Shown here in pieces: positions 3,001 through 40,567 of a stretch of 64,000 nt of DNA. Position 1 is the stretch's first letter; every line of letters starts with the position of its first letter. Made by a program: the position numbers and the translations under genes. This DNA is from a virus: IMG/VR virus record IMGVR_UViG_3300046804_000544, positions 32,001 through 96,000 of that record; one strand, 5' to 3'. The notes beneath the pieces are model-generated. The model was given only the letters and a program-made list of their open reading frames with translations. It had not been told where the DNA came from and made no database searches.

Positions 3001-4265
3001 CATGCCGGTGCTGTTCCGCTGACTTTTAAAATTTGGCCGTCTGTGCCGATACCTAATCGTGTTGGTCCACCGCCGCCATAATAGAAAATATCACCTTGTG
3101 TAGTCAATACGTTTGATTCTGTACCAGCTACCAATTGATTCCAGTATGTACCTGCAACATCTGTTGCTGGATCATTAACTCCAGTTGAAGATGTATGTGC
3201 TAATATACAAACATAACTGTTACTGTTCTGTTTGACCGAATCACCTGCTACATAGGCAGTAGCGGTAGCCCAGTTACCTCTCCAACGGAATCCAGGATTT
3301 AATAAAGACCAGTAGGTTGCATTGGGAGGTGTAAAGTTTGTATGATCTAAAATGCATAGATATGTATAACCACCTAGGGTTACAACATTACCTACTTTAT
3401 AAGCAGTAGCTCCACTCCAAGCACCTTGAAAACTAAACCCGGTACTTAATAGTGCCCAGTCAGATGGGTTTGTAGTAGGAGTTTTATTAGTGTTATTTGT
3501 CTTAGCAGAATAAGCATAGCCGCCATAAGTTACTACATCGCCTAATTGATAAATTCCAACAGATGTCCATGTGCTTTCAAATTGTAAACCTTCTACAAAT
3601 GCTACCCAATAACCTGAAGTTACTTGATCAGTAATGAAACTGGCTGTTGAAACGTGTATTGTTACGCAGATCCATAAACCTGCACCATATTTTACAACAT
3701 CGTTAATTTTGTATCTAGTACCGCTGGCGGTCCATGTTCCTTTGTAGTCAAAACTTTGATTTACAATGTCCCATTTTGCCTGATCTGCTTCTAGGCCACC
3801 GCCTACCAGTGTAGCACTGGCGTTACTAGTGTGTGCTGTATTACAACGATAAACAGTTCCACCATATTTTACAACATCTGCAACTTTGTAAACTGTGCTA
3901 GTTGCCCAATTTCCCAACCAGTTAAATGCCGTAGCAAACTGATCCCATTTAGATTGATCTAATTCTAATGTGCCTTGACTAGTGTGCCCAGTATTACAAA
4001 CATAAACAGTTCCGCCATATTTTACAGTGTCACCTACTTTATAAAATGTAGTAGCTGCCCAGTTACCGAGCCAAGCCTGACCATCTGAAGCTAGATTCCA
4101 ATATGTTGCTAGATCTGTATAAAAATTTGAAGTGCTGGTATGCCCTGCTGTACATATATAAGTTTTTCCGCCGTAACGAATTACGTCGTCTTTAATATAG
4201 GTTGTTGCTGCTGCCCAGGTGCTTTTCCAGACAAATCTAATTCTACCTAGCTTAAACTCTGCCAT
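1..4265 (-). CDS. Giant virion fibre/appendage protein, partial (runs off left edge, >1421 aa); paralog of 4318..9384
   Basis: Absent from the ORF track because it has no stop in the window. ATG at 4265 reads MAEFKLGRIRFVWKSTWAAATTYIKDDVIRYGGKTYIC, and the same frame is open near position 1 (QYLNINNLTNPPTAGANVV). It has W-x-x-x-T-x-YK-x-x-D-x-V-x-YGG repeats, a YYVAPSG...TIKYAC / GDELRTV beta-helix-type module and YGNG-FVAV repeats, colinear with the 1688-aa neighbour. Confidence 0.85.
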   Translation of the reverse strand, partial: MAEFKLGRIRFVWKSTWAAATTYIKDDVIRYGGKTYICTAGHTSTSNFYTDLATYWNLASDGQAWLGNWAATTFYKVGDTVKYGGTVYVCNTGHTSQGTLELDQSKWDQFATAFNWLGNWATSTVYKVADVVKYGGTVYRCNTAHTSNASATLVGGGLEADQAKWDIVNQSFDYKGTWTASGTRYKINDVVKYGAGLWICVTIHVSTASFITDQVTSGYWVAFVEGLQFESTWTSVGIYQLGDVVTYGGYAYSAKTNNTNKTPTTNPSDWALLSTGFSFQGAWSGATAYKVGNVVTLGGYTYLCILDHTNFTPPNATYWSLLNPGFRWRGNWATATAYVAGDSVKQNSNSYVCILAHTSSTGVNDPATDVAGTYWNQLVAGTESNVLTTQGDIFYYGGGGPTRLGIGTDGQILKVSGTAPAWATFGAISKVYYVAPSGTDAAGYGNTLDKPFATIKYACGQAISGSTIFIKTGTYTEVCPITVPANVSLVGDELRTVIVQPTVATANMFYVRNASTIRNMTLQGLSGTLSSTVASGSITNTTASTQGNTGAGGLVTVASTANFVTGFTFTVSGTGGGGLSAGTYYVGLVTSTTQFTVATTYANALNGIYVTLSTAAISTTTYTLVTPFGTLRPSAGAYVSLDPGSGPADSTVWITSKSPYIQNVTTFGTGCVGMKVDGNIHNGGNKSIVANDFTNILSDGIGAWVTNMGLAELVSIFTYYNHIGYLAENGGKIRATNGNNSYGLYGSVSEGVRFLESPIYAAVNNRAGQAQVGYTLTNGSAILRLEYSNAGTNYTGSGTTYTFSGGAGAAHDAIIDTRDQAVFEVRLLTAGSGYVFAGSNAQSGNTTQITLAASDTTGTAASYQGVRVTIQSGAGAGQFGYIAAYNPTLKVASVAKESFTALSVTATGSNLITVSSTTGFYTGMPVVFSGTTLTGSNIVIGTIYYVVAGFSGTQFSISSAQGGGTFTVGSNTGGGPMSVNAAGWDHAVPGTTRAAALDGTTAYIVEPRISFSTTAFSATARTNNGNTVASAYANGYFVTVGTGGVANYSTNGTTTTLATGFPTFTVQAAAAGAISGTTYYVAVGNGTTSAWSSNGTTWNTGTTTNQNWTGVAYGNSRFIAVSSGATATMISTNGSTWAAGGALPSSNTWTSIAYGGGKWVAIAGAGTPGTAAAYSTDNGTTWSAATLPVSQAWTSITYGNNLFVAVANGSATYALSTDGINWVARGPAVAYSDVGLPSAGSWKEVRYGQGVFIAIQGFGGATTQAVTWSYDGENWVSANLSASSTWTTVQFGNPSNTPIWMFHTSTTTSASVPNFERAQARAVIASNQVAAFRLTESGSGYTVAPTMTITDPNVTVAATWTVRTGNGALAQPNFSNKGTGYSSATTTITTTSGGYMDQFQTGQYLNINNLTNPPTAGANVV

Positions 4266-24448: not shown

Positions 24449-24835
24449 TTAGATTTCTGTTAATTGCATGTAGTTAGAAGAACTATCGTCAACAATAGTC
24501 CACTTATAACGCTTACCGTTAAACCCGTGGGCAGTTCTGTTGTACAATCTTTTGATAAAAACAACTTGTCCTGCACCGTTGAAACCAGGAATGCTCATTT
24601 CATTGTCAGACAATGCCGCTGGTGCTTTGTTTACTAGTGTGCAAATACCTTCTGAGCCAGTACCGTCTCTAGCAGTGTCAATTTTAAATTTAACACTACT
24701 ACGCTGGCGTAGAATAATTGCTACTTGCGATACTGCTACTGAAGGAAGTTTTGCATTAACTGTGATGTTGTTGCCTTCAATGCCTGTGCTACCTTGTGTA
24801 ACACCAAAATATTTTTTATTAACTGGACGTCCCAT
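24449..24835 (-). CDS. Probable virion structural protein immediately downstream of the capsid gene (128 aa)
   Basis: AAGGAG ribosome-binding site, its own late promoter, and N-terminus MGRPVNKKYFG. Confidence 0.7.
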   Translation of the reverse strand: MGRPVNKKYFGVTQGSTGIEGNNITVNAKLPSVAVSQVAIILRQRSSVKFKIDTARDGTGSEGICTLVNKAPAALSDNEMSIPGFNGAGQVVFIKRLYNRTAHGFNGKRYKWTIVDDSSSNYMQLTEI

Positions 24836-24904
24836 TTGTTTTCTCCTTAAATTTGACGTTTTAGGTCTACGCAGAGGGATTCTGCATAAATCATTTAGAC
24901 TAAT

Positions 24905-24911
24905 TATTTAT
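24905..24911 (-). promoter_or_regulatory. T4-type late promoter (ATAAATA) just past the capsid-gene terminator
   Basis: ATAAATA 70 nt upstream of the ATG at 24835. Confidence 0.6.
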
Positions 24912-35236: not shown

Positions 35237-35463
35237 AGCTGTTAAGACTGTCGAACTCTCAAATTGAAGAATTTATTAAATCTATAGATCATTCCGCAAA
35301 AGAATTAAAAGAAGAAATTTTTAGATTAGCATGGTATATGAGAGGTGGTGTTAACAGCGATGACTTATTTCACAAATATTCTTATGAAGATAGAGTTATT
35401 ATAAACGAAATTGTCAAAGACAATATTGAAATAACTAAAAAAACTGGAATGAATTTAATTTAA
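35224..35463 (+). CDS. Start-less gp51-like ORF, probably reached by a -1 frameshift from the gp26-like gene
   Basis: Not in the ORF track. The frame is open from 35197 to TAA at 35461-35463: FFRLKLLRLSNSQIEEFIKSIDHSAKELKEEIFRLAWYMRGGVNSDDLFHKYSYEDRVIINEIVKDNIEITKKTGMNLI. There is no ATG before the internal M of WYMRGG. Confidence 0.7.
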   Translation, partial: FFRLKLLRLSNSQIEEFIKSIDHSAKELKEEIFRLAWYMRGGVNSDDLFHKYSYEDRVIINEIVKDNIEITKKTGMNLI

Positions 35464-36582
35464 CGGTGGCCAGTCTTGGCCAGGTTTAAGTTTAACACCT
35501 GAGCTAATAAGTGGATCAGGTTGACCTTTTCTAATAGCTGTTTGTCGAATATTTTTTATGTAATGGTTGTATTTGACACTTGGCAGTAAAAATCCTTCAG
35601 CATCACTTACTGGAATATCTTGAACATAAATTCCAGCACCGCCTTCTTTACGTTCTTTTTCAGCTGCTGCTTGTGCTTCGGGCCCGCCAACTTTTTGTGT
35701 TTCTACGTCTTTCTTAGAACCAGGTAATATGCCTAAATCTTTAGGTTCTTTGCCAGTTATCTTTTTGTAACCATCTTGATAAGCTTCAATCACTTCATCC
35801 CATAGTGTATCGCCTACCATACCCAATGTAGAAATCATACCTCCAGCATATTTGTAAGCCCAGTTTCTACCTGCATCGCTACCTATCCATGTTTGAAACC
35901 AAACTAAAAACCCGTGCCATGCAATGACTCCAGCACCACCTAAACGAATAGCCAGCTTAGGAGCGAATCCTGCAATAAATCTAATAACAATATTTTTTGA
36001 TTTAGATGCTAATTTACTTGTAACCTTGGCAACAATTTTGGTAAGACCCAGAGCCGCCGCAGTTACTTTAGTTAAATTTAACAACCATGAAATAAATGCT
36101 GTTACTAATTTAGGTAGAATTTGAAGTGTAAAGAAACCCCACTCAAATTCTCGCATTTCTTTGTATTTTTCGTAGGCATTTGGTTTAGCACCGTCGTATT
36201 TGCCCTGTAGATAAAATGCTTCATTTACCATGAGATTAGCATAAAGCTGTTGTACTGGTACAAAGAATCCAGCAGCTTTTAAGAATGCTACCCATTTTGT
36301 AGGATATTTTTCGCCTAGTATGGCTCCTGCTCTATCATATAATTTGAGATTTTTAGCATAAGAAGTAAATGTTTTACTCAATGCTTCCGTAGACAATTTA
36401 GTAATTGCTACAGCAGTCACAGTGCCAATAGCTACAGTTTTTAAAGTTTGATAATCAGCTTTATCTAGAATTTCTGATAAAACTGGAGCATTACTTGCTA
36501 AGTCAGAACTACTATCTGAAGGAGTTTCATTTCCTAATCCAGGACTTTCGTAATCTTCTTTAACGATCTCAAATATTTTCAT
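35455..36582 (-). CDS. Hypothetical protein with several hydrophobic helices; possible internal head/ejection protein (375 aa)
   Basis: N-terminus MKIFEIVKE. Hydrophobic segments include FFTLQILPKLVTAFISWLL and LGGAGVIAWHGFLVWF. A late promoter lies upstream. Confidence 0.6.
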   Translation of the reverse strand: MKIFEIVKEDYESPGLGNETPSDSSSDLASNAPVLSEILDKADYQTLKTVAIGTVTAVAITKLSTEALSKTFTSYAKNLKLYDRAGAILGEKYPTKWVAFLKAAGFFVPVQQLYANLMVNEAFYLQGKYDGAKPNAYEKYKEMREFEWGFFTLQILPKLVTAFISWLLNLTKVTAAALGLTKIVAKVTSKLASKSKNIVIRFIAGFAPKLAIRLGGAGVIAWHGFLVWFQTWIGSDAGRNWAYKYAGGMISTLGMVGDTLWDEVIEAYQDGYKKITGKEPKDLGILPGSKKDVETQKVGGPEAQAAAEKERKEGGAGIYVQDIPVSDAEGFLLPSVKYNHYIKNIRQTAIRKGQPDPLISSGVKLKPGQDWPPLN

Positions 36583-36589
36583 AGTTTTG

Positions 36590-36596
36590 TATTTAT
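36590..36596 (-). promoter_or_regulatory. T4-type late promoter (ATAAATA), 7 nt before the ATG at 36582
   Basis: Direct motif match. Confidence 0.6.
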
Positions 36597-37077
36597 TGAA
36601 AGAAGAACTTACGTTCTTCTGTTCTTCGCTCGCGCTCGAACTATTTCTTAGAATTTACTGCGAAGCAGTTTAAAATATTATCTAGATTGTGTAGTCACAC
36701 TTAGCCCGTTAGGGCTAAGAAACATTATCTGAGTTGCTAATGTCACACAGCGTTAGGACTATAATTGTCTATAGTTAAGTATAATTTACTATAATTAACC
36801 ATAAACAACTGCGTAGGCGGTTGTCCGGTACCTACTCATCCCGTCTTATCACAACGGCAGGCCTGTACTGATACGCTATCATCTGTACAGCCGTTAGGGA
36901 GTTACCCTTCTTTTAGCCTTTTTGAAATATTTTTCTAACAGCAAATCCGGTTGTATGTAGGCATATCCGAACATCGTCCTGTAAAGGATAGTTGCTATTG
37001 ACTCACAACGGCGAGAGATTTCCTTACCCTGCGACATCACCAGGGATTTGGGCGTCCGAAATTAGCTGACGCTGGCT
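36597..37077 (-). ncRNA. Candidate large structured non-coding RNA (alternatively an origin); unclassified
   Basis: ~480 nt with no ORF in an otherwise gene-dense genome. It contains at least 7 hairpins and repeated CCTAACG (x3) and GCCGTTGTGA (x2) motifs, and ends in a hairpin followed by UUUC. Confidence 0.55.
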
Positions 37078-37521
37078 TTAACCGTTTGTTTTTGCCTGTG
37101 CTTGTTCTTGTAGGCGTTGCCTTAAGACAGTTGAGCCGCCAATTCTACAGTTGATAATACCATTATAGTATTCATCTGACTCTAAAACTCTGCGTTCAAA
37201 CTGTTCTCGTGCCTCTAGATATGACATTTCTGCCTTACTTTTGCAGTAATAAAGTATTTCTCTTGTGAATTTTTCTGGACCTAATGCCTGTACGTCTGCT
37301 TGTAGCCTATCGCTTGAACTCCAATAATCACGCCAATCGCTTTCAACAACTGAGCGTCTTTTGAGTTTTTTGCCTTTGAGAGGCGGCCTAGTTTTTTTAA
37401 ATTGGGCTAATTTTTTGCCTATGTATTTTTGTCCAGTGGTGAGATTTGTAATAAGATAAACAAAGCCAATATAGCCTTCTGGTATTTCTTCTACTAATTG
37501 ATTGTGATAGACCCACGTCAT
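37078..37521 (-). CDS. GIY-YIG endonuclease, T4 endonuclease II (DenA)-like
   Basis: GFVYLITNLTTGQKYIGKK (GIY-YIG), SDWRDYWSSS, FTREIL, E.REQF and YYNGII motifs. Confidence 0.8.
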   Translation of the reverse strand: MTWVYHNQLVEEIPEGYIGFVYLITNLTTGQKYIGKKLAQFKKTRPPLKGKKLKRRSVVESDWRDYWSSSDRLQADVQALGPEKFTREILYYCKSKAEMSYLEAREQFERRVLESDEYYNGIINCRIGGSTVLRQRLQEQAQAKTNG

Positions 37522-37524
37522 CAA

Positions 37525-37779
37525 TTATGTAGTATCTTGAGCCTGATTCTTCTGTTGTTTTTGAGCGGCACGATATGCCGGAGATTTAATTTTAGGTTTC
37601 TTTTTACGTATTTGTAATATTTCTTCGCGCATTTCTAGCGCAATTCGCCTAATTTCATATAAATGTTTTCTTAGCCTAATACCACTGGCATGTGATTCAT
37701 AAGTTTCCCAGTTTTGATTTTCTTCAAAATAGGCGCGAAACTCTTTCATCAATGCTTCGTGGAGATGCCTTGTAGTCAT
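37525..37779 (-). CDS. Small basic protein, Hc1/histone-H1-like (84 aa)
   Basis: ASGIRLRKHLYEIRRIALEMREEI resembles the Hc1-type AAG.RARK.L.E+ motif; K/R-rich tail. Confidence 0.45.
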   Translation of the reverse strand: MTTRHLHEALMKEFRAYFEENQNWETYESHASGIRLRKHLYEIRRIALEMREEILQIRKKKPKIKSPAYRAAQKQQKNQAQDTT

Positions 37780-39557
37780 TCTTCAATTTCTAAATCGTTA
37801 GCATAACTGGTAAAACCGTTTTCTTTAACAACTTTTAACACATTGTTAACACGACCTACCAATTCATCTTTGTGGCTGATGAGATAAATGTTTTTATTAC
37901 GTTCACGAGCCATCTTCTTCAATACTGCTAGTGCATTTTCGACACCGGCAGCATCTAAACCGTTGTCAATCAATTCATCGATAAACAACAAATTGATATT
38001 TTGATATAGGCTTTCCCATACATCACGGAAACTCCAGCTCAATCCTAAGATCAATCTGTTGCGTTCACCACGCGACAAGTTGTCAAAGTCTAAATCTTGT
38101 CCTAATTGCGTAATTTCTACATTCAAATCGTTTAAGAAACTGACTTGATGCGGTAATCCCATCTTGTCAAGATAGTAAGTTAATCTGTTATTCAAATAGG
38201 CCAAGTTCTGATCAATAATCTTTTTACGGATAAAACTGTCTTTGTTAGTTAATAACTTGAGTAGGAACTCTTGATGATCTTTCAAACTGGTCAACGCATT
38301 AATGTTATCCCAACTGATTGTTTGTATAGCAGTCTTACGTAGGTCATCAATCTGTTCTTGATATGGATCTACTTCTTGTTGACGAATAGCCAATGCATTT
38401 TCTAAACTGGTTAAATTGTTTTGGTGCTTGAGTGCTTCTTCAAGAGCGTCATAATAGGTGGTAGGTCGCCCATTAATGTCACCTATTGCATCTAATTCTT
38501 GAATAATCGAAGCATAACTATCGCTGAGTCCCTGCAAATAGATAAGCGCATCTTCTAAATTCTTTTCAGCAATAGCAGTCATTTCTTCATGCGTCTGCGT
38601 ATGTACACCTTGTTTACAACTTGGACAAGTATTATTTTTTAATTGTTCTACTTCTTCTTGATATTTTGTTACTTGTTTGTCTGCTTGTGTAATTGCAGTT
38701 TCTATAGTGGCTTTTTCTTTGTTAAGACTTTTGATCTTAGCTGATAGTTCGTCGTATACCTTTAGTTTAGCATGTTGCTCTAATTCACGTTCAATATCAA
38801 CTGCTTGTAATTCCAGTATGCTAGCAGCAATCTTTTCACAGTCTGATTTTTGTTGTGCATACCAAGCCTTTTGTCTAGTTTCTAAACCAGAAATGCTTTG
38901 TTCAATCTTATCGTTAGAACGTTTAGCTGCTTCAATATCAGCAGTTTCTTGTGTAATAGCATCTTTAGTATTACGTATCTGTTCTTTAAGCAGTTCTGCT
39001 TTCTCACTTAGCAGTGTAATACCTAGCAATTGTTCAATAATTTCTCTTTGTTCGTTTGCTTTTAAACTTAAAAATGGCTCGGTATAAGTGTTTAAAGCCA
39101 CAATATGACGGAACATGTCGTGACTCATACCTAATAATTGATCAATATCCTTTTGTGTTTCACGCATGTCACCTTGACTATCGTCAGTTTCTTCTGCGCC
39201 TTGCTCTTGATCATTAACATAGAACTTCATCACAGTGGGTTTGCGTCCACGCTCGATCTTATACTTGTTACCATCTTTGTCAAACGTCAGGGTGACCAAC
39301 ATGTTTTTACCATTAATCTTGTTGATCAGGTTATCTTTCTTAATGTTAGTCAGCGCCTGCCCATATAATGCGAAACTTAACGCATTAACAATAGTAGTCT
39401 TACCAGTGCCGTTTCGAGAGCCGGAATCGTCACCTCCTTGGTCCAAGTTCTCGCCTAGAACGAGCGTTAAGTTTTCTTTACCAAAATTTACGGCCTGGGT
39501 TTGATTGCCCACGCTCATAAAGTTTTTAACGGTTAATTCTTTTAGTTTTAAACTCAT
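37776..39557 (-). CDS. gp46: Recombination exonuclease ATPase subunit, gp46/SbcC/Rad50-like
   Basis: Walker A GSRNGTGKTT, coiled coil with a CPSC zinc hook, signature LSRGE, Walker B LLFIDE and ISH. Confidence 0.95.
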   Translation of the reverse strand: MSLKLKELTVKNFMSVGNQTQAVNFGKENLTLVLGENLDQGGDDSGSRNGTGKTTIVNALSFALYGQALTNIKKDNLINKINGKNMLVTLTFDKDGNKYKIERGRKPTVMKFYVNDQEQGAEETDDSQGDMRETQKDIDQLLGMSHDMFRHIVALNTYTEPFLSLKANEQREIIEQLLGITLLSEKAELLKEQIRNTKDAITQETADIEAAKRSNDKIEQSISGLETRQKAWYAQQKSDCEKIAASILELQAVDIERELEQHAKLKVYDELSAKIKSLNKEKATIETAITQADKQVTKYQEEVEQLKNNTCPSCKQGVHTQTHEEMTAIAEKNLEDALIYLQGLSDSYASIIQELDAIGDINGRPTTYYDALEEALKHQNNLTSLENALAIRQQEVDPYQEQIDDLRKTAIQTISWDNINALTSLKDHQEFLLKLLTNKDSFIRKKIIDQNLAYLNNRLTYYLDKMGLPHQVSFLNDLNVEITQLGQDLDFDNLSRGERNRLILGLSWSFRDVWESLYQNINLLFIDELIDNGLDAAGVENALAVLKKMARERNKNIYLISHKDELVGRVNNVLKVVKENGFTSYANDLEIEE

Positions 39558-40567
39558 AGGTTGTTGTAAATGCTGAGTAGCACCTTAGGATCAAAGCTGT
39601 CGCTTTGTATATTAACTAATTGATTGGTTACAATTTGATCAACACTTTCAAATTTTTGAATATCAATGTCTGTGTTGATTTCTAATTCTTTTTTCTCTGG
39701 AATAAGCGTAAGTTCACGGATGTCATAGTCTTCCATAAACTTTTCTTTGATAAAACTAGCTTCTTCGTAGCTTATATCAATGTCTAAACTTACACGAAGG
39801 TGCTGTTTAGGTTTAATAATTGTATCTGCTTCGTCAATAAGTTGACTTAGTTTAACTGTACGAAATGTGGGTTGTGCATCCCAAGTAAAATATTCAGGTT
39901 GACCACCCCACTCTAAGACCATCATGCCACGTTCATCATCCCATGCATCTGCATAGTTGTGAGGGAAAGCATTGCCAATATAGACCATGTTACGCTTTTG
40001 CTGACGTTTGTGAAAGTGTCCGCTAAAACCTAGCTCATACCCTTCAAATGCTTCTAACTGTATGTCACCGTGATCAGGCATTTGCACCATGGCATTCATC
40101 ATAAAGTGCGGCAACTCAAAGTGTCCAAAGATGTATCTGGCTTTCTTTTTACCAATAGACTTCCATTCTTCGCCCACTAACCACGGGCAAAGTGTAACGT
40201 CTCCAACAGTAGTTGGTTGATGAACTACAGTAATACCTGGAATGTATTTGCCAAACTCTACTGAGTGGATATCTCGCTTATCTTTATAATAAAGATCATG
40301 ATTGCCAGGGAAAAAATAAAACTGATCAAAAGCCTGTCCAAGTTTCTCCAGTGCTCGTAGGCTGTAGTCCATAGTAGTAATGTTAAGACTATTGCGATTG
40401 TGGTGCCAATCGCCCATAAAAATGCCAGTGTCACAACCTTCCTCCTTGGCTTTTTGTATATACCAATCTACAAAGTCTTCACAGTCTTGGTTATGTGTAG
40501 AACTATTTGATTTTAGTCCAAAATGTATGTCTGTAAAACAGGCTACTTTCTTAAAAAGATTACTCAT
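39554..40567 (-). CDS. gp47: Recombination exonuclease nuclease subunit, gp47/SbcD/Mre11-like
   Basis: Metallophosphoesterase motifs DIHFG, GDWHH, GNHD, GHFE and SGHFH. Confidence 0.95.
   Translation of the reverse strand: MSNLFKKVACFTDIHFGLKSNSSTHNQDCEDFVDWYIQKAKEEGCDTGIFMGDWHHNRNSLNITTMDYSLRALEKLGQAFDQFYFFPGNHDLYYKDKRDIHSVEFGKYIPGITVVHQPTTVGDVTLCPWLVGEEWKSIGKKKARYIFGHFELPHFMMNAMVQMPDHGDIQLEAFEGYELGFSGHFHKRQQKRNMVYIGNAFPHNYADAWDDERGMMVLEWGGQPEYFTWDAQPTFRTVKLSQLIDEADTIIKPKQHLRVSLDIDISYEEASFIKEKFMEDYDIRELTLIPEKKELEINTDIDIQKFESVDQIVTNQLVNIQSDSFDPKVLLSIYNNL

What the first reader, a model, noticed from the sequence alone, without database searches (positions are those of the whole stretch)
36597..37077. 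Ornate ~480-nt non-coding element directly downstream of a GIY-YIG endonuclease
This is the only long ORF-free stretch in 64 kb, and it is packed with stems: 36601-20 (8 bp, then UUUC on the minus strand, terminator-like), 36657-69, 36700-19 (8 bp, UAAC loop), 36863-90 (nested), 36897-907, 37027-45 and 37052-72. CCTAACG recurs three times (+ strand 36707, 36751, 36892) and GCCGTTGTGA twice (36849, 37003), as expected for repeated tertiary contacts or protein-binding sites. It starts right at the endonuclease stop codon. It could be an undescribed large phage ncRNA (the class that includes GOLLD and ROOL), a nuclease-partner RNA (by analogy to HEARO/omega RNAs with IscB), or a replication/recombination origin beside gp46/47. 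I cannot assign it to a known family.
Basis: partly seen in the sequence, partly recalled or inferred. Interest (0 to 1): 0.8.

Follow-up and report, generated by a model that had tools for sequence, protein, structure and literature searches.

The report
Extended Polynucleobacter-1 twin-box phage RNA
The gene-free gap behind a small nuclease gene of this uncultured T4-like freshwater phage encodes a real, doubly knotted non-coding RNA of about 480 bases. Its first third is the catalogued orphan motif Polynucleobacter-1, the rest is uncatalogued, and its job is still unknown.

Summary
Observation confirmed.

It is a minus-strand RNA gene with three domains:
- A, 37077-36936: Rfam RF01718 Polynucleobacter-1, 76 bits against a cut-off of 37.
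- B, 36925-36812: two hairpins plus an H-type pseudoknot.
- C, 36759-36598: four hairpins with GNRA and UUCG loops and a tandem G.A motif. It also holds two identical 7-nt "twin boxes" (AGAUAAU).

A 7-bp loop-to-strand pseudoknot ties B to C. Compensatory changes support nearly every helix in more than 60 related contigs.

The RNA and the minimal GIY-YIG nuclease occur together in every one of 132 related loci with enough sequence. However, nuclease alleles swap independently of the RNA, and no nuclease residue tracks the RNA or the boxes. Same-sized nuclease homologues in other phages have no such RNA. The nuclease therefore looks like a fixed neighbour, not a shown partner. A DNA-level origin is not supported.

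Function is unknown. My best guess is a trans-acting folded RNA that shows two identical words to a two-site reader. Domains B and C are absent from Rfam and from the papers I could search. This scan has already noted the same family in over 200 other genomes.

The parts
37078..37524 (-). Minimal SegE-like GIY-YIG nuclease gene (148 aa, catalytic domain only). It is the upstream neighbour and probably shares a transcript with the RNA.
   Evidence: Pfam PF19835, E 5.6e-35, residues 4-124. The GFVY...YIGKK...R...E...N motifs are invariant across both allele classes. phrog_447.
36936..37077 (-). Domain A: Polynucleobacter-1 RNA (RF01718). It begins one base after the nuclease stop codon.
   Evidence: cmscan gives 76 bits against a gathering score of 37, E 2.5e-14, model positions 1-141 of 141. 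The same family is found in 8 related loci at 54-98 bits. P1 and the 3' hairpin show compensatory changes.
36812..36925 (-). Domain B. Short hairpin 36908-36896. Long variable hairpin 36892-36860 with a conserved loop. H-type pseudoknot PK1, with stem S1 36855-36851 / 36824-36820 and stem S2 36835-36831 / 36817-36813.
   Evidence: Alignment A2 (70 sequences): 95.7% of cells paired, against 77% in shuffles and 39-51% when slid. 19 of 23 pairs show compensatory change. Covariation score is 0.575 against under 0.1 when slid. Coordinates.
36873..36879 (-). PK2, 5' strand: loop of the long domain-B hairpin (AUAGCGU).
   Evidence: It pairs with 36753-36747. 7 bp, 95.4% paired against 78.6% in shuffles and 17-51% when slid; 5 of 7 pairs are compensatory.
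36747..36753 (-). PK2, 3' strand: start of domain C (ACGCUGU).
   Evidence: Same test as the 5' strand. This pairing ties domains B and C into one folded RNA.
36760..36811 (-). Lineage-specific AT-rich insert between domains B and C. It folds as an extra hairpin in the window.
   Evidence: More than 85% of relatives have a gap here. The insert is present only in the window and close kin, with different inserts at the same site in L047 and L074. It is a long hairpin in the minimum-free-energy fold.
36598..36759 (-). Domain C. Repeat unit R1, hairpin C1 36719-36700, repeat unit R2, hairpin C2 36669-36657 (UUCG loop), hairpin C3 36641-36621 (tandem G.A, 1-nt bulge, GNRA loop) and hairpin C4 36620-36601 (GUAA loop, terminator-like).
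   Evidence: Alignment A3 (65 sequences): 94.3% paired against 84% in shuffles and 31-41% when slid. C1-C4 all show compensatory changes. Coordinates.
36724..36730 (-). Twin box 1 (AGAUAAU) in R1.
   Evidence: The two boxes are identical in 120 of 131 pattern hits. Most of the other 11 look like spurious pattern hits, and one real pair differs by a single base. Five different words occur among loci.
36677..36683 (-). Twin box 2 (AGAUAAU) in R2.
   Evidence: No conserved complementary partner lies within -1000 to +1500 nt. The R-unit pattern occurs nowhere else in the window.
36589..36597 (-). Conserved AATAAATA box, like a T4 late promoter, between C4 and the next gene. It marks the 3' limit of the RNA.
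   Evidence: Nearly invariant in alignments A1 and A3. The match to the T4 late-promoter consensus TATAAATA rests on established knowledge.
35455..36582 (-). Downstream late gene (375 aa). Relatives have variable bodies behind a conserved MK[IV]x[ED]I start. It is not part of the RNA.
   Evidence: Downstream ORFs of 196-627 aa begin about 420-515 nt after the nuclease stop in relatives. Conserved starts are visible. No Pfam, PHROG or NCBIfam hit.

Best explanation
Shown: 36598-37077 on the minus strand is the gene of one large structured non-coding RNA. It is about 480 nt here and about 430 nt in most relatives. It lies at the 3' end of the gp47-gp46-small ORF-GIY-YIG gene row and stops at a hairpin just before the late-promoter-like box of the next gene.

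Shown: it has three domains.
- Domain A is the catalogued Polynucleobacter-1 motif.
- Domain B has two hairpins and an H-type pseudoknot.
- Domain C has four capped hairpins and two single-stranded repeat units that carry an identical 7-nt word.
A second pseudoknot, from a domain-B hairpin loop to the start of domain C, locks B and C together.

Inferred: no sigma-70-like promoter was found between the nuclease ORF and the RNA, so the RNA is probably made as the tail of the early or middle operon transcript and perhaps trimmed from it.

Inferred: it acts in trans as a compact folded RNA, probably the scaffold of a ribonucleoprotein. It would present its two identical words to a reader with two equivalent sites, such as a dimeric protein or a repeated nucleic-acid target.

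Inferred: the GIY-YIG nuclease is a homing-type gene that has become a fixed neighbour. It probably uses the conserved RNA gene as recombination flank, much as T4 segB sits among the tRNA and stable-RNA genes. It is not the RNA's dedicated partner.
For: RNA identity:
- RF01718 matches at 76 bits over the full model.
- The whole gap is conserved up to about 36575 in more than 50 distinct loci.
- RNAalifold predicts 51 pairs, 37 with compensatory change.
- Domain B is 95.7% paired with 19 of 23 pairs compensatory. The domain C hairpins are compensatory. PK2 has 5 of 7 pairs compensatory.
- G-U against A-C counts in helices are 125 to 12 in domain B and 37 to 13 in domain C, so the sense strand is the minus strand.
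- The longest sense ORF varies from 19 to 101 aa among relatives.
- Folding z-score is -5.06.

Fixed feature of the phage family:
- All 66 loci chosen by gp46 similarity that have enough downstream DNA carry both nuclease and RNA.
- All 66 loci chosen by an RNA pattern that have enough upstream DNA carry the nuclease.

Neighbour rather than partner:
- Phages with gp46 86-87% identical to the window's have nucleases only 54-59% identical. Phages with gp46 57-60% identical have nucleases 81-88% identical. The RNA is present in all of them.
- Distance correlation is 0.19 between RNA and nuclease and 0.34 between RNA and gp46.
- Maximum normalised mutual information is 0.35 between nuclease type and any RNA column, and 0.43 between box type and any nuclease residue, below the gp46 background of 0.66.
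- Homologues of 137-156 aa in Melnitz, S-SRM01, phiM12 and Ps15 sit in other contexts with only 28-150 nt downstream.

Twin boxes: identical in 120 of 131 pattern hits (most of the rest look spurious) although the word differs between phages.

T4 parallel: segB is followed by tRNA-Arg, rnaD and rnaC.
Against: - No transcript data exist, so the 5' end, any processing and the stability of the RNA are all inferred.
- No reader of the twin boxes was found: no complementary site nearby and no co-varying nuclease residue.
- The strict adjacency to the nuclease in 132 of 132 loci, in a region where neighbouring segments recombine freely, could still reflect a functional tie that my allele-level tests cannot see. 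One example would be an RNA-protein interface that is conserved in both nuclease classes.
- C4 lacks a run of 5 or more U in the window and was not called a terminator by the scan.
- The R1:R2 pairing proposed by RNAalifold has no compensatory support and breaks in 12 sequences, so the state of the boxes, single-stranded or paired, is not settled.
Confidence: 0.5

Rival explanations
1. Nuclease-partner RNA. The RNA binds the GIY-YIG nuclease, which has no DNA-binding domain, and gives it target choice, activation or restraint. The twin boxes would serve as recognition words, by analogy with omega and HEARO RNAs of IscB.
For: The RNA starts at the nuclease stop codon, and the two co-occur in 132 of 132 loci. 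The nuclease is only a catalytic domain, residues 4-124 of 148. The twin boxes change between phages but stay identical to each other.
Against: Nuclease alleles swap independently of the RNA. No RNA column tracks nuclease type. No nuclease residue tracks box type. No guide-like match to the flanks was found. Domain A is replaced in some loci that have the same nuclease type. Equally small homologues in other phages are followed by only 28-150 nt of non-coding DNA.
Confidence: 0.12
2. Cis-acting 3' untranslated region or insulator. The structured tail stabilises or tunes the gp47-gp46-nuclease message and stops early transcription before the late promoter of the next gene. It would have no role in trans.
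For: No promoter was found between the ORF and the RNA. The RNA ends in a hairpin 5-25 nt before a conserved late-promoter-like box. It holds the same position in all loci.
Against: A single hairpin would be enough for either job. About 430 nt with two pseudoknots, three GNRA loops, a G.A motif and conserved single-stranded words is far more than known 3'-end stabilisers need. C4 is not a canonical terminator in the window.
Confidence: 0.2
3. Replication or recombination origin. The transcript stays on the DNA next to gp46/47 and primes DNA synthesis, or the DNA hairpins act as a recombination hotspot.
For: The position beside the recombination nuclease genes.
Against: Compensatory changes preserve RNA-type pairs, with many G-U and few A-C. 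Two long-range pseudoknots make sense only in a free single strand. No iterons or AT-rich unwinding tract are conserved; the AT-rich insert is lineage-specific.
Confidence: 0.07
4. No function of its own. The sequence would be kept similar only because homing by the neighbouring nuclease repeatedly co-converts its flank.
For: Nuclease alleles are clearly exchanged between phages, and flanks of homing genes are co-converted (established knowledge of T4 seg genes).
Against: Co-conversion cannot produce compensatory double changes in more than 40 base pairs, nor strand-specific G-U pairs.
Confidence: 0.02

Closest known systems
Polynucleobacter-1 RNA motif (Rfam RF01718; Weinberg et al. 2010, Genome Biol 11:R31, PMC2864571)
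   Same: Window 37077-36936 matches the whole model at 76 bits. The paper's supplement says most examples lie downstream of one gene family (GOS11034), in fresh-water and estuary samples. That matches the position seen here.
   Different: The catalogued motif is 141 nt with no assigned function, and the paper found it in no purified phage. Here it is only the first third of a roughly 430-490 nt RNA with two further covarying domains, two pseudoknots and twin boxes. It lies in T4-like phage contigs, and the upstream gene is identified as a minimal GIY-YIG nuclease.
Large 'ornate' RNAs linked to phages and prophages (GOLLD, ROOL; Rfam)
   Same: Size class, many helices, pseudoknots, GNRA loops, phage association and unknown biochemical role. 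This comparison is from my own knowledge.
   Different: No sequence or model similarity: no Rfam hit outside RF01718, even at E up to 5. This RNA is smaller than GOLLD. Multimer formation was not tested.
T4 segB - tRNA-Arg - rnaD - rnaC cluster
   Same: A free-standing GIY-YIG gene directly followed by about 340 nt of stable RNA genes of unknown function (rnaC, rnaD) on the same strand.
   Different: No similarity between T4 rnaC or rnaD and RF01718. SegB has a DNA-binding part (221 aa), and there is no tRNA here. The parallel is one of position only.
HEARO / omega RNA with IscB, and reRNA with TnpB
   Same: A structured RNA abutting a small nuclease gene of a mobile type.
   Different: The nuclease fold differs (GIY-YIG, not HNH/RuvC). 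There is no guide segment matching the flanks, no co-variation with the nuclease, and no transposon ends.

Membership tests
Rfam RF01718 Polynucleobacter-1 | Covariance-model score at or above the curated gathering score over the full model | tested here: met
   76 bits against 37, model positions 1-141 of 141, E 2.5e-14. Applies to 36936-37077 only.
Rfam RF01718 Polynucleobacter-1 | Helices kept by compensatory change in relatives | tested here: met
   P1 (A1 columns 25-29 with 43-47) and the 3' hairpin (146-149 with 167-170) show changes on both sides. Eight relatives score 54-98 bits.
Rfam RF01718 Polynucleobacter-1 | Lies downstream of genes of family GOS11034 (Weinberg 2010 supplement) | not testable with these tools
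   The GOS family sequences are not on hand. Here the upstream gene is always the GIY-YIG nuclease.
GIY-YIG nuclease superfamily (SegE-type catalytic domain, PF19835) | Profile match and intact catalytic motifs (GIY, YIG, Arg, Glu, Asn) | tested here: met
   E 5.6e-35. GFVY, YIGKK, SDWR, EAREQF and YYNG are invariant or nearly so in 76 distinct proteins of both allele classes.
Free-standing homing endonuclease (Seg / I-TevI type) | C-terminal DNA-binding domain joined to the catalytic domain | tested here: not met
   The protein is 148 aa and the catalytic domain covers residues 4-124. No second Pfam, PHROG or NCBIfam domain.
Free-standing homing endonuclease (Seg / I-TevI type) | Sporadic presence or absence among close relatives | tested here: not met
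   Present in all 132 loci with enough sequence.
Free-standing homing endonuclease (Seg / I-TevI type) | Horizontal movement: phylogeny discordant with flanking core genes, and other insertion sites in other phages | tested here: met
   Two allele classes are distributed against gp46 identity. Homologues lie next to nrdB, endolysin or tail genes in cultured phages.
Guide or partner RNA of a nuclease (omega RNA / HEARO type) | RNA and nuclease co-vary, or the RNA carries a segment matching a target or flank | tested here: not met
   Maximum normalised mutual information is 0.35 and 0.43. No complementary site for the boxes within -1000 to +1500 nt.
Group I intron carrying a GIY-YIG gene | Intron core model match and a host gene split into exons | tested here: not met
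   No intron family hit at E up to 5. The upstream ORF ends at the nuclease start, and the downstream gene has its own promoter-like box and ATG.
Intrinsic terminator (for hairpin C4) | GC-rich hairpin followed by a U run | tested here: inconclusive
   The 8-bp hairpin covaries. The window has only UUUC after it, and the scan did not call it a terminator. Some relatives have longer U runs.
DNA-level origin of replication | Conservation explained by duplex DNA features, not by strand-specific RNA pairing | tested here: not met
   G-U against A-C counts are 125 to 12 and 37 to 13 in helices. Pseudoknots are supported.

The most novel reading that the evidence does not exclude
The twin boxes are two copies of a programmable recognition word. 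Through them a ribonucleoprotein built on this RNA would recognise a two-fold nucleic-acid target. The protein part might be the adjacent GIY-YIG nuclease, which has no DNA-binding domain. That would make this an RNA-directed GIY-YIG system that competing phage lineages re-tune by changing both boxes together.
Probability: 0.07. Interest if true: 0.95.

Novelty: new variant of a known kind. Interest (0 to 1): 0.55.

Why it matters
Polynucleobacter-1 has been an orphan 141-nt motif since 2010, described with no assigned function and not found in any purified phage. This locus shows three things:
- It is the 5' domain of a far larger, doubly knotted RNA.
- The RNA is fixed in an abundant family of uncultured freshwater T4-like phages, with contigs up to about 380 kb.
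- The gene that accompanies it is a minimal GIY-YIG nuclease.

Phages rarely keep 430-490 nt of non-coding sequence, so the RNA very likely does something important.

The twin boxes are two words that change between phages but stay identical within each phage. They give a concrete handle for finding the RNA's reader. The full-length model would also let RNA databases replace a partial family with the whole molecule.

Tried and rejected
- **Group I intron, known ribozymes, tRNA-like element.** No Rfam hit other than RF01718, even at E up to 5. No tRNA found.
- **Hidden small ORF.** The longest sense ORF varies from 19 to 101 aa among relatives.
- **T4 rnaC or rnaD as homologues.** No similarity.
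- **Cultured representative.** blastn of the whole gap and of domains B and C against 50,697 phage records found nothing. Melnitz, whose nuclease is the closest cultured homologue (62%), has only protein genes after its gp46 (26% identical) and a 148-nt gap after its nuclease. An apparent R-like motif there is not significant under a fuzzy pattern that hits 38 times in the window.
- **Bacterial origin.** Only 4 hits in one genome each of 185,579 species, all on short contigs of metagenome-assembled genomes.
- **RNA without the nuclease, or nuclease without the RNA, inside the family.** None in 132 loci.
- **Co-variation of nuclease type with RNA columns, and of box type with nuclease residues.** At or below background.
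- **Complementary partner of the boxes within the locus.** None.
- **R units as promoters with an activator box.** The pattern occurs only at the two R units in 64 kb, and the spacing is wrong for sigma-70.
- **R1:R2 helix from RNAalifold.** No compensatory change, and it is broken in 12 sequences.
- **Loose all-against-all covariation scans.** Swamped by clade structure. Only PK2 survived a direct test.
- **A second copy of the nuclease or the RNA in the 133-kb record.** None.

Full report
**What is there.** The window comes from a 133-kb IMG/VR virus record with T4-type genes. On the minus strand the order is:
- gp47-like phosphoesterase, 39554-40567
- gp46-like SMC ATPase, 37776-39557
- an 84-aa basic ORF, 37525-37779
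- a 148-aa GIY-YIG ORF, 37078-37524
- the gap, 36583-37077
- a 375-aa ORF, 35455-36582

The gap has no ORF of 50 aa or more on either strand and is the longest such stretch in the 64 kb. Its minus-strand RNA folds with a z-score of -5.06 against shuffles.

**Known part.** Rfam places a full-length Polynucleobacter-1 RNA (RF01718) at 36936-37077(-). It scores 76 bits against a gathering score of 37 and begins one base after the nuclease stop codon. The only paper in the searchable library that names the motif is Weinberg et al. 2010. Its supplement says most examples lie downstream of genes of family GOS11034 and that none was found in a purified phage. Nothing else in the gap matches any Rfam family, even at E up to 5.

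**The gap is conserved as a whole.** The nuclease has hundreds of close relatives in IMG/VR. In these loci DNA similarity runs from the ORF start through the whole gap to about 36575 and then stops. A 50-sequence alignment shows conservation throughout, except for an AT-rich stretch (about 36811-36760) that only the window and a few close relatives have. RNAalifold gave 51 pairs, 37 with compensatory change.

**Anatomy.**

Domain B (36925-36812) was tested on 70 sequences. It has a short hairpin, a long hairpin with a variable stem and a conserved loop, and an H-type pseudoknot with both stems covarying.
- 95.7% of cells are paired, against 77% in shuffles and 39-51% when partners are slid.
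- 19 of 23 pairs are compensatory.

Domain C (36759-36598) was tested on 65 sequences. It has four hairpins, all with compensatory changes:
- C1.
- C2, with a UUCG loop.
- C3, with a tandem G.A motif, a one-base bulge and a GNRA loop.
- C4, mostly with a GNRA loop.

After reading earlier scan notes that called this family doubly knotted, I searched for further long-range pairs. I found that the loop of the long domain-B hairpin (36879-36873) pairs with the start of domain C (36753-36747). This is a 7-bp helix, 95.4% paired against 78.6% in shuffles and 17-51% when slid, with 5 of 7 pairs compensatory. Domains B and C therefore fold as one molecule, across the window's insert.

In helix positions G-U outnumbers A-C by 125 to 12 in domain B and 37 to 13 in domain C, so the folded strand is the nuclease's sense strand. 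No ORF is conserved.

**Twin boxes.** Two repeat units flank hairpin C1. Each carries a 7-nt word, at 36730-36724 and 36683-36677 (AGAUAAU here). The two copies are identical in 120 of 131 pattern hits; most of the other 11 look like spurious pattern hits, and one real pair differs by a single base. The word itself differs between phages: AGAUAAU 83, GCAUAAU 19, GGAUAAU 16, AGAUGAU 1, ACAUGAU 1.

I saw this pattern before reading the scan's earlier notes, which call these the twin boxes. No complementary site lies at a conserved place within -1000 to +1500 nt. The unit pattern occurs nowhere else in the window. A helix between the two units has no compensatory support.

**Ends.** No sigma-70-like promoter lies between the ORF and the RNA on the minus strand, so co-transcription with the nuclease gene is the simplest reading. 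After C4 comes a nearly invariant AATAAATA box, which resembles the T4 late-promoter consensus, and then the ATG of the next gene. C4 is terminator-like but lacks a long U run in the window.

**Relation to the nuclease.**

The protein is a SegE-type GIY-YIG catalytic domain with intact motifs and no DNA-binding domain.

Co-occurrence is strict.
- Of 80 loci fetched by gp46 similarity, all 66 with enough downstream DNA have both nuclease and RNA.
- Of 76 loci fetched by an RNA pattern, all 66 with enough upstream DNA have the nuclease.
- All loci share the synteny gp47, gp46, small ORF, nuclease, RNA, variable late gene.

The nuclease nevertheless behaves as an exchangeable allele. There are two classes, about 55% identical to each other, and they are distributed against gp46 identity.
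- Pairwise distances of the RNA correlate weakly with those of the nuclease (0.19) and of gp46 (0.34).
- No RNA column is diagnostic of nuclease class (maximum normalised mutual information 0.35).
- No nuclease residue tracks the box word (0.43, below the gp46 background of 0.66).
- Some loci with the window's nuclease class have a different 5' domain but keep domain C.
- Homologues of the same size in cultured phages sit after nrdB (Melnitz), next to endolysin genes (S-SRM01, phiM12) or after a tail tube gene (Ps15). Only 28-150 nt of non-coding DNA follows them.

The family of enzymes therefore does not need this RNA, and nothing ties this RNA's sequence to its nuclease.

**Where it occurs.** There is no blastn match in 50,697 cultured phage records. 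One genome each of 185,579 prokaryote species gave only four short contigs from metagenome-assembled genomes, one of them binned as Polynucleobacter. Related contigs reach 270-383 kb. The own record holds a single copy of each gene.

**Reading.** The element is a real, large, doubly pseudoknotted RNA. Its catalogued part is only the first third.

I favour a trans-acting folded RNA, probably a ribonucleoprotein scaffold that shows two identical words to a two-site reader. The nuclease would be a homing-type gene fixed beside a conserved RNA gene, as segB sits beside tRNA-Arg, rnaD and rnaC in T4.

The cis-acting 3' untranslated region, the nuclease-partner RNA and the origin remain as rivals with lower odds. 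Pure co-conversion is excluded by the compensatory changes. Function is inferred, not shown.

**Earlier notes of this scan.** The same family has been noted in more than 200 other genomes and followed up several times, with the same core verdict. I treated these notes as leads.
- I confirmed independently the Rfam match, the twin boxes, two pseudoknots and the neighbour-not-partner result.
- I could not confirm one note's claim of look-alikes in cultured E. coli and Pseudomonas giant phages, at least at blastn sensitivity.

Noticed in passing
window 24833-24907 (-): A second Rfam match above its gathering score: freshwater-2 RNA (RF02980), 52.1 bits against 49.9. It is another orphan motif from environmental sequence, here inside a phage contig.
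   Followed up: no
window 37525-37779 (-): An 84-aa ORF with a lysine-rich tail and a weak Hc1 histone-like hit (E 1.4e-4, below the curated cut-off). Its stop codon abuts the nuclease start (TAA TTG ATG). A 64-133-aa ORF holds this position in most relatives. It could supply the DNA binding that the nuclease lacks.
   Followed up: partly
window 37078-37524 (-) and loci L083-L162: The nuclease exists as two allele classes, about 55% identical to each other, at the same site. They are distributed against the gp46 tree, which suggests allele replacement between co-infecting phages.
   Followed up: partly
window 36760-36811 (-): An AT-rich insert with three (T/C)TATAG words. It is present only in the window and close kin and folds as a long hairpin. 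L047 and L074 carry different inserts at the same junction between domains B and C.
   Followed up: partly
window 35455-36582 (-) and downstream ORFs of loci L002-L081: The late gene after the RNA varies from 196 to 627 aa among relatives, yet nearly all start MK[IV]x[ED]I behind a conserved AATAAATA box. It looks like a hypervariable locus next to a homing-type nuclease.
   Followed up: partly
L018, L047, L070, L074, L075 (first ~150 nt after the nuclease stop): These loci keep domain C and a pseudoknot-like core, but a different sequence replaces the Polynucleobacter-1 domain and has no Rfam hit. The 5' domain is therefore exchangeable.
   Followed up: partly
L082 (Methylophilales phage Melnitz, MZ577097) 3498-3938: The closest cultured homologue of the nuclease (62% identical) lies just downstream of the ribonucleotide reductase small-chain gene, separated from it by one 52-aa ORF. 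From memory of the T4 map, not checked here, endonuclease II (denA) holds a similar place near nrdB. Many records label this protein family 'NAD synthetase', which looks like a misnomer.
   Followed up: no
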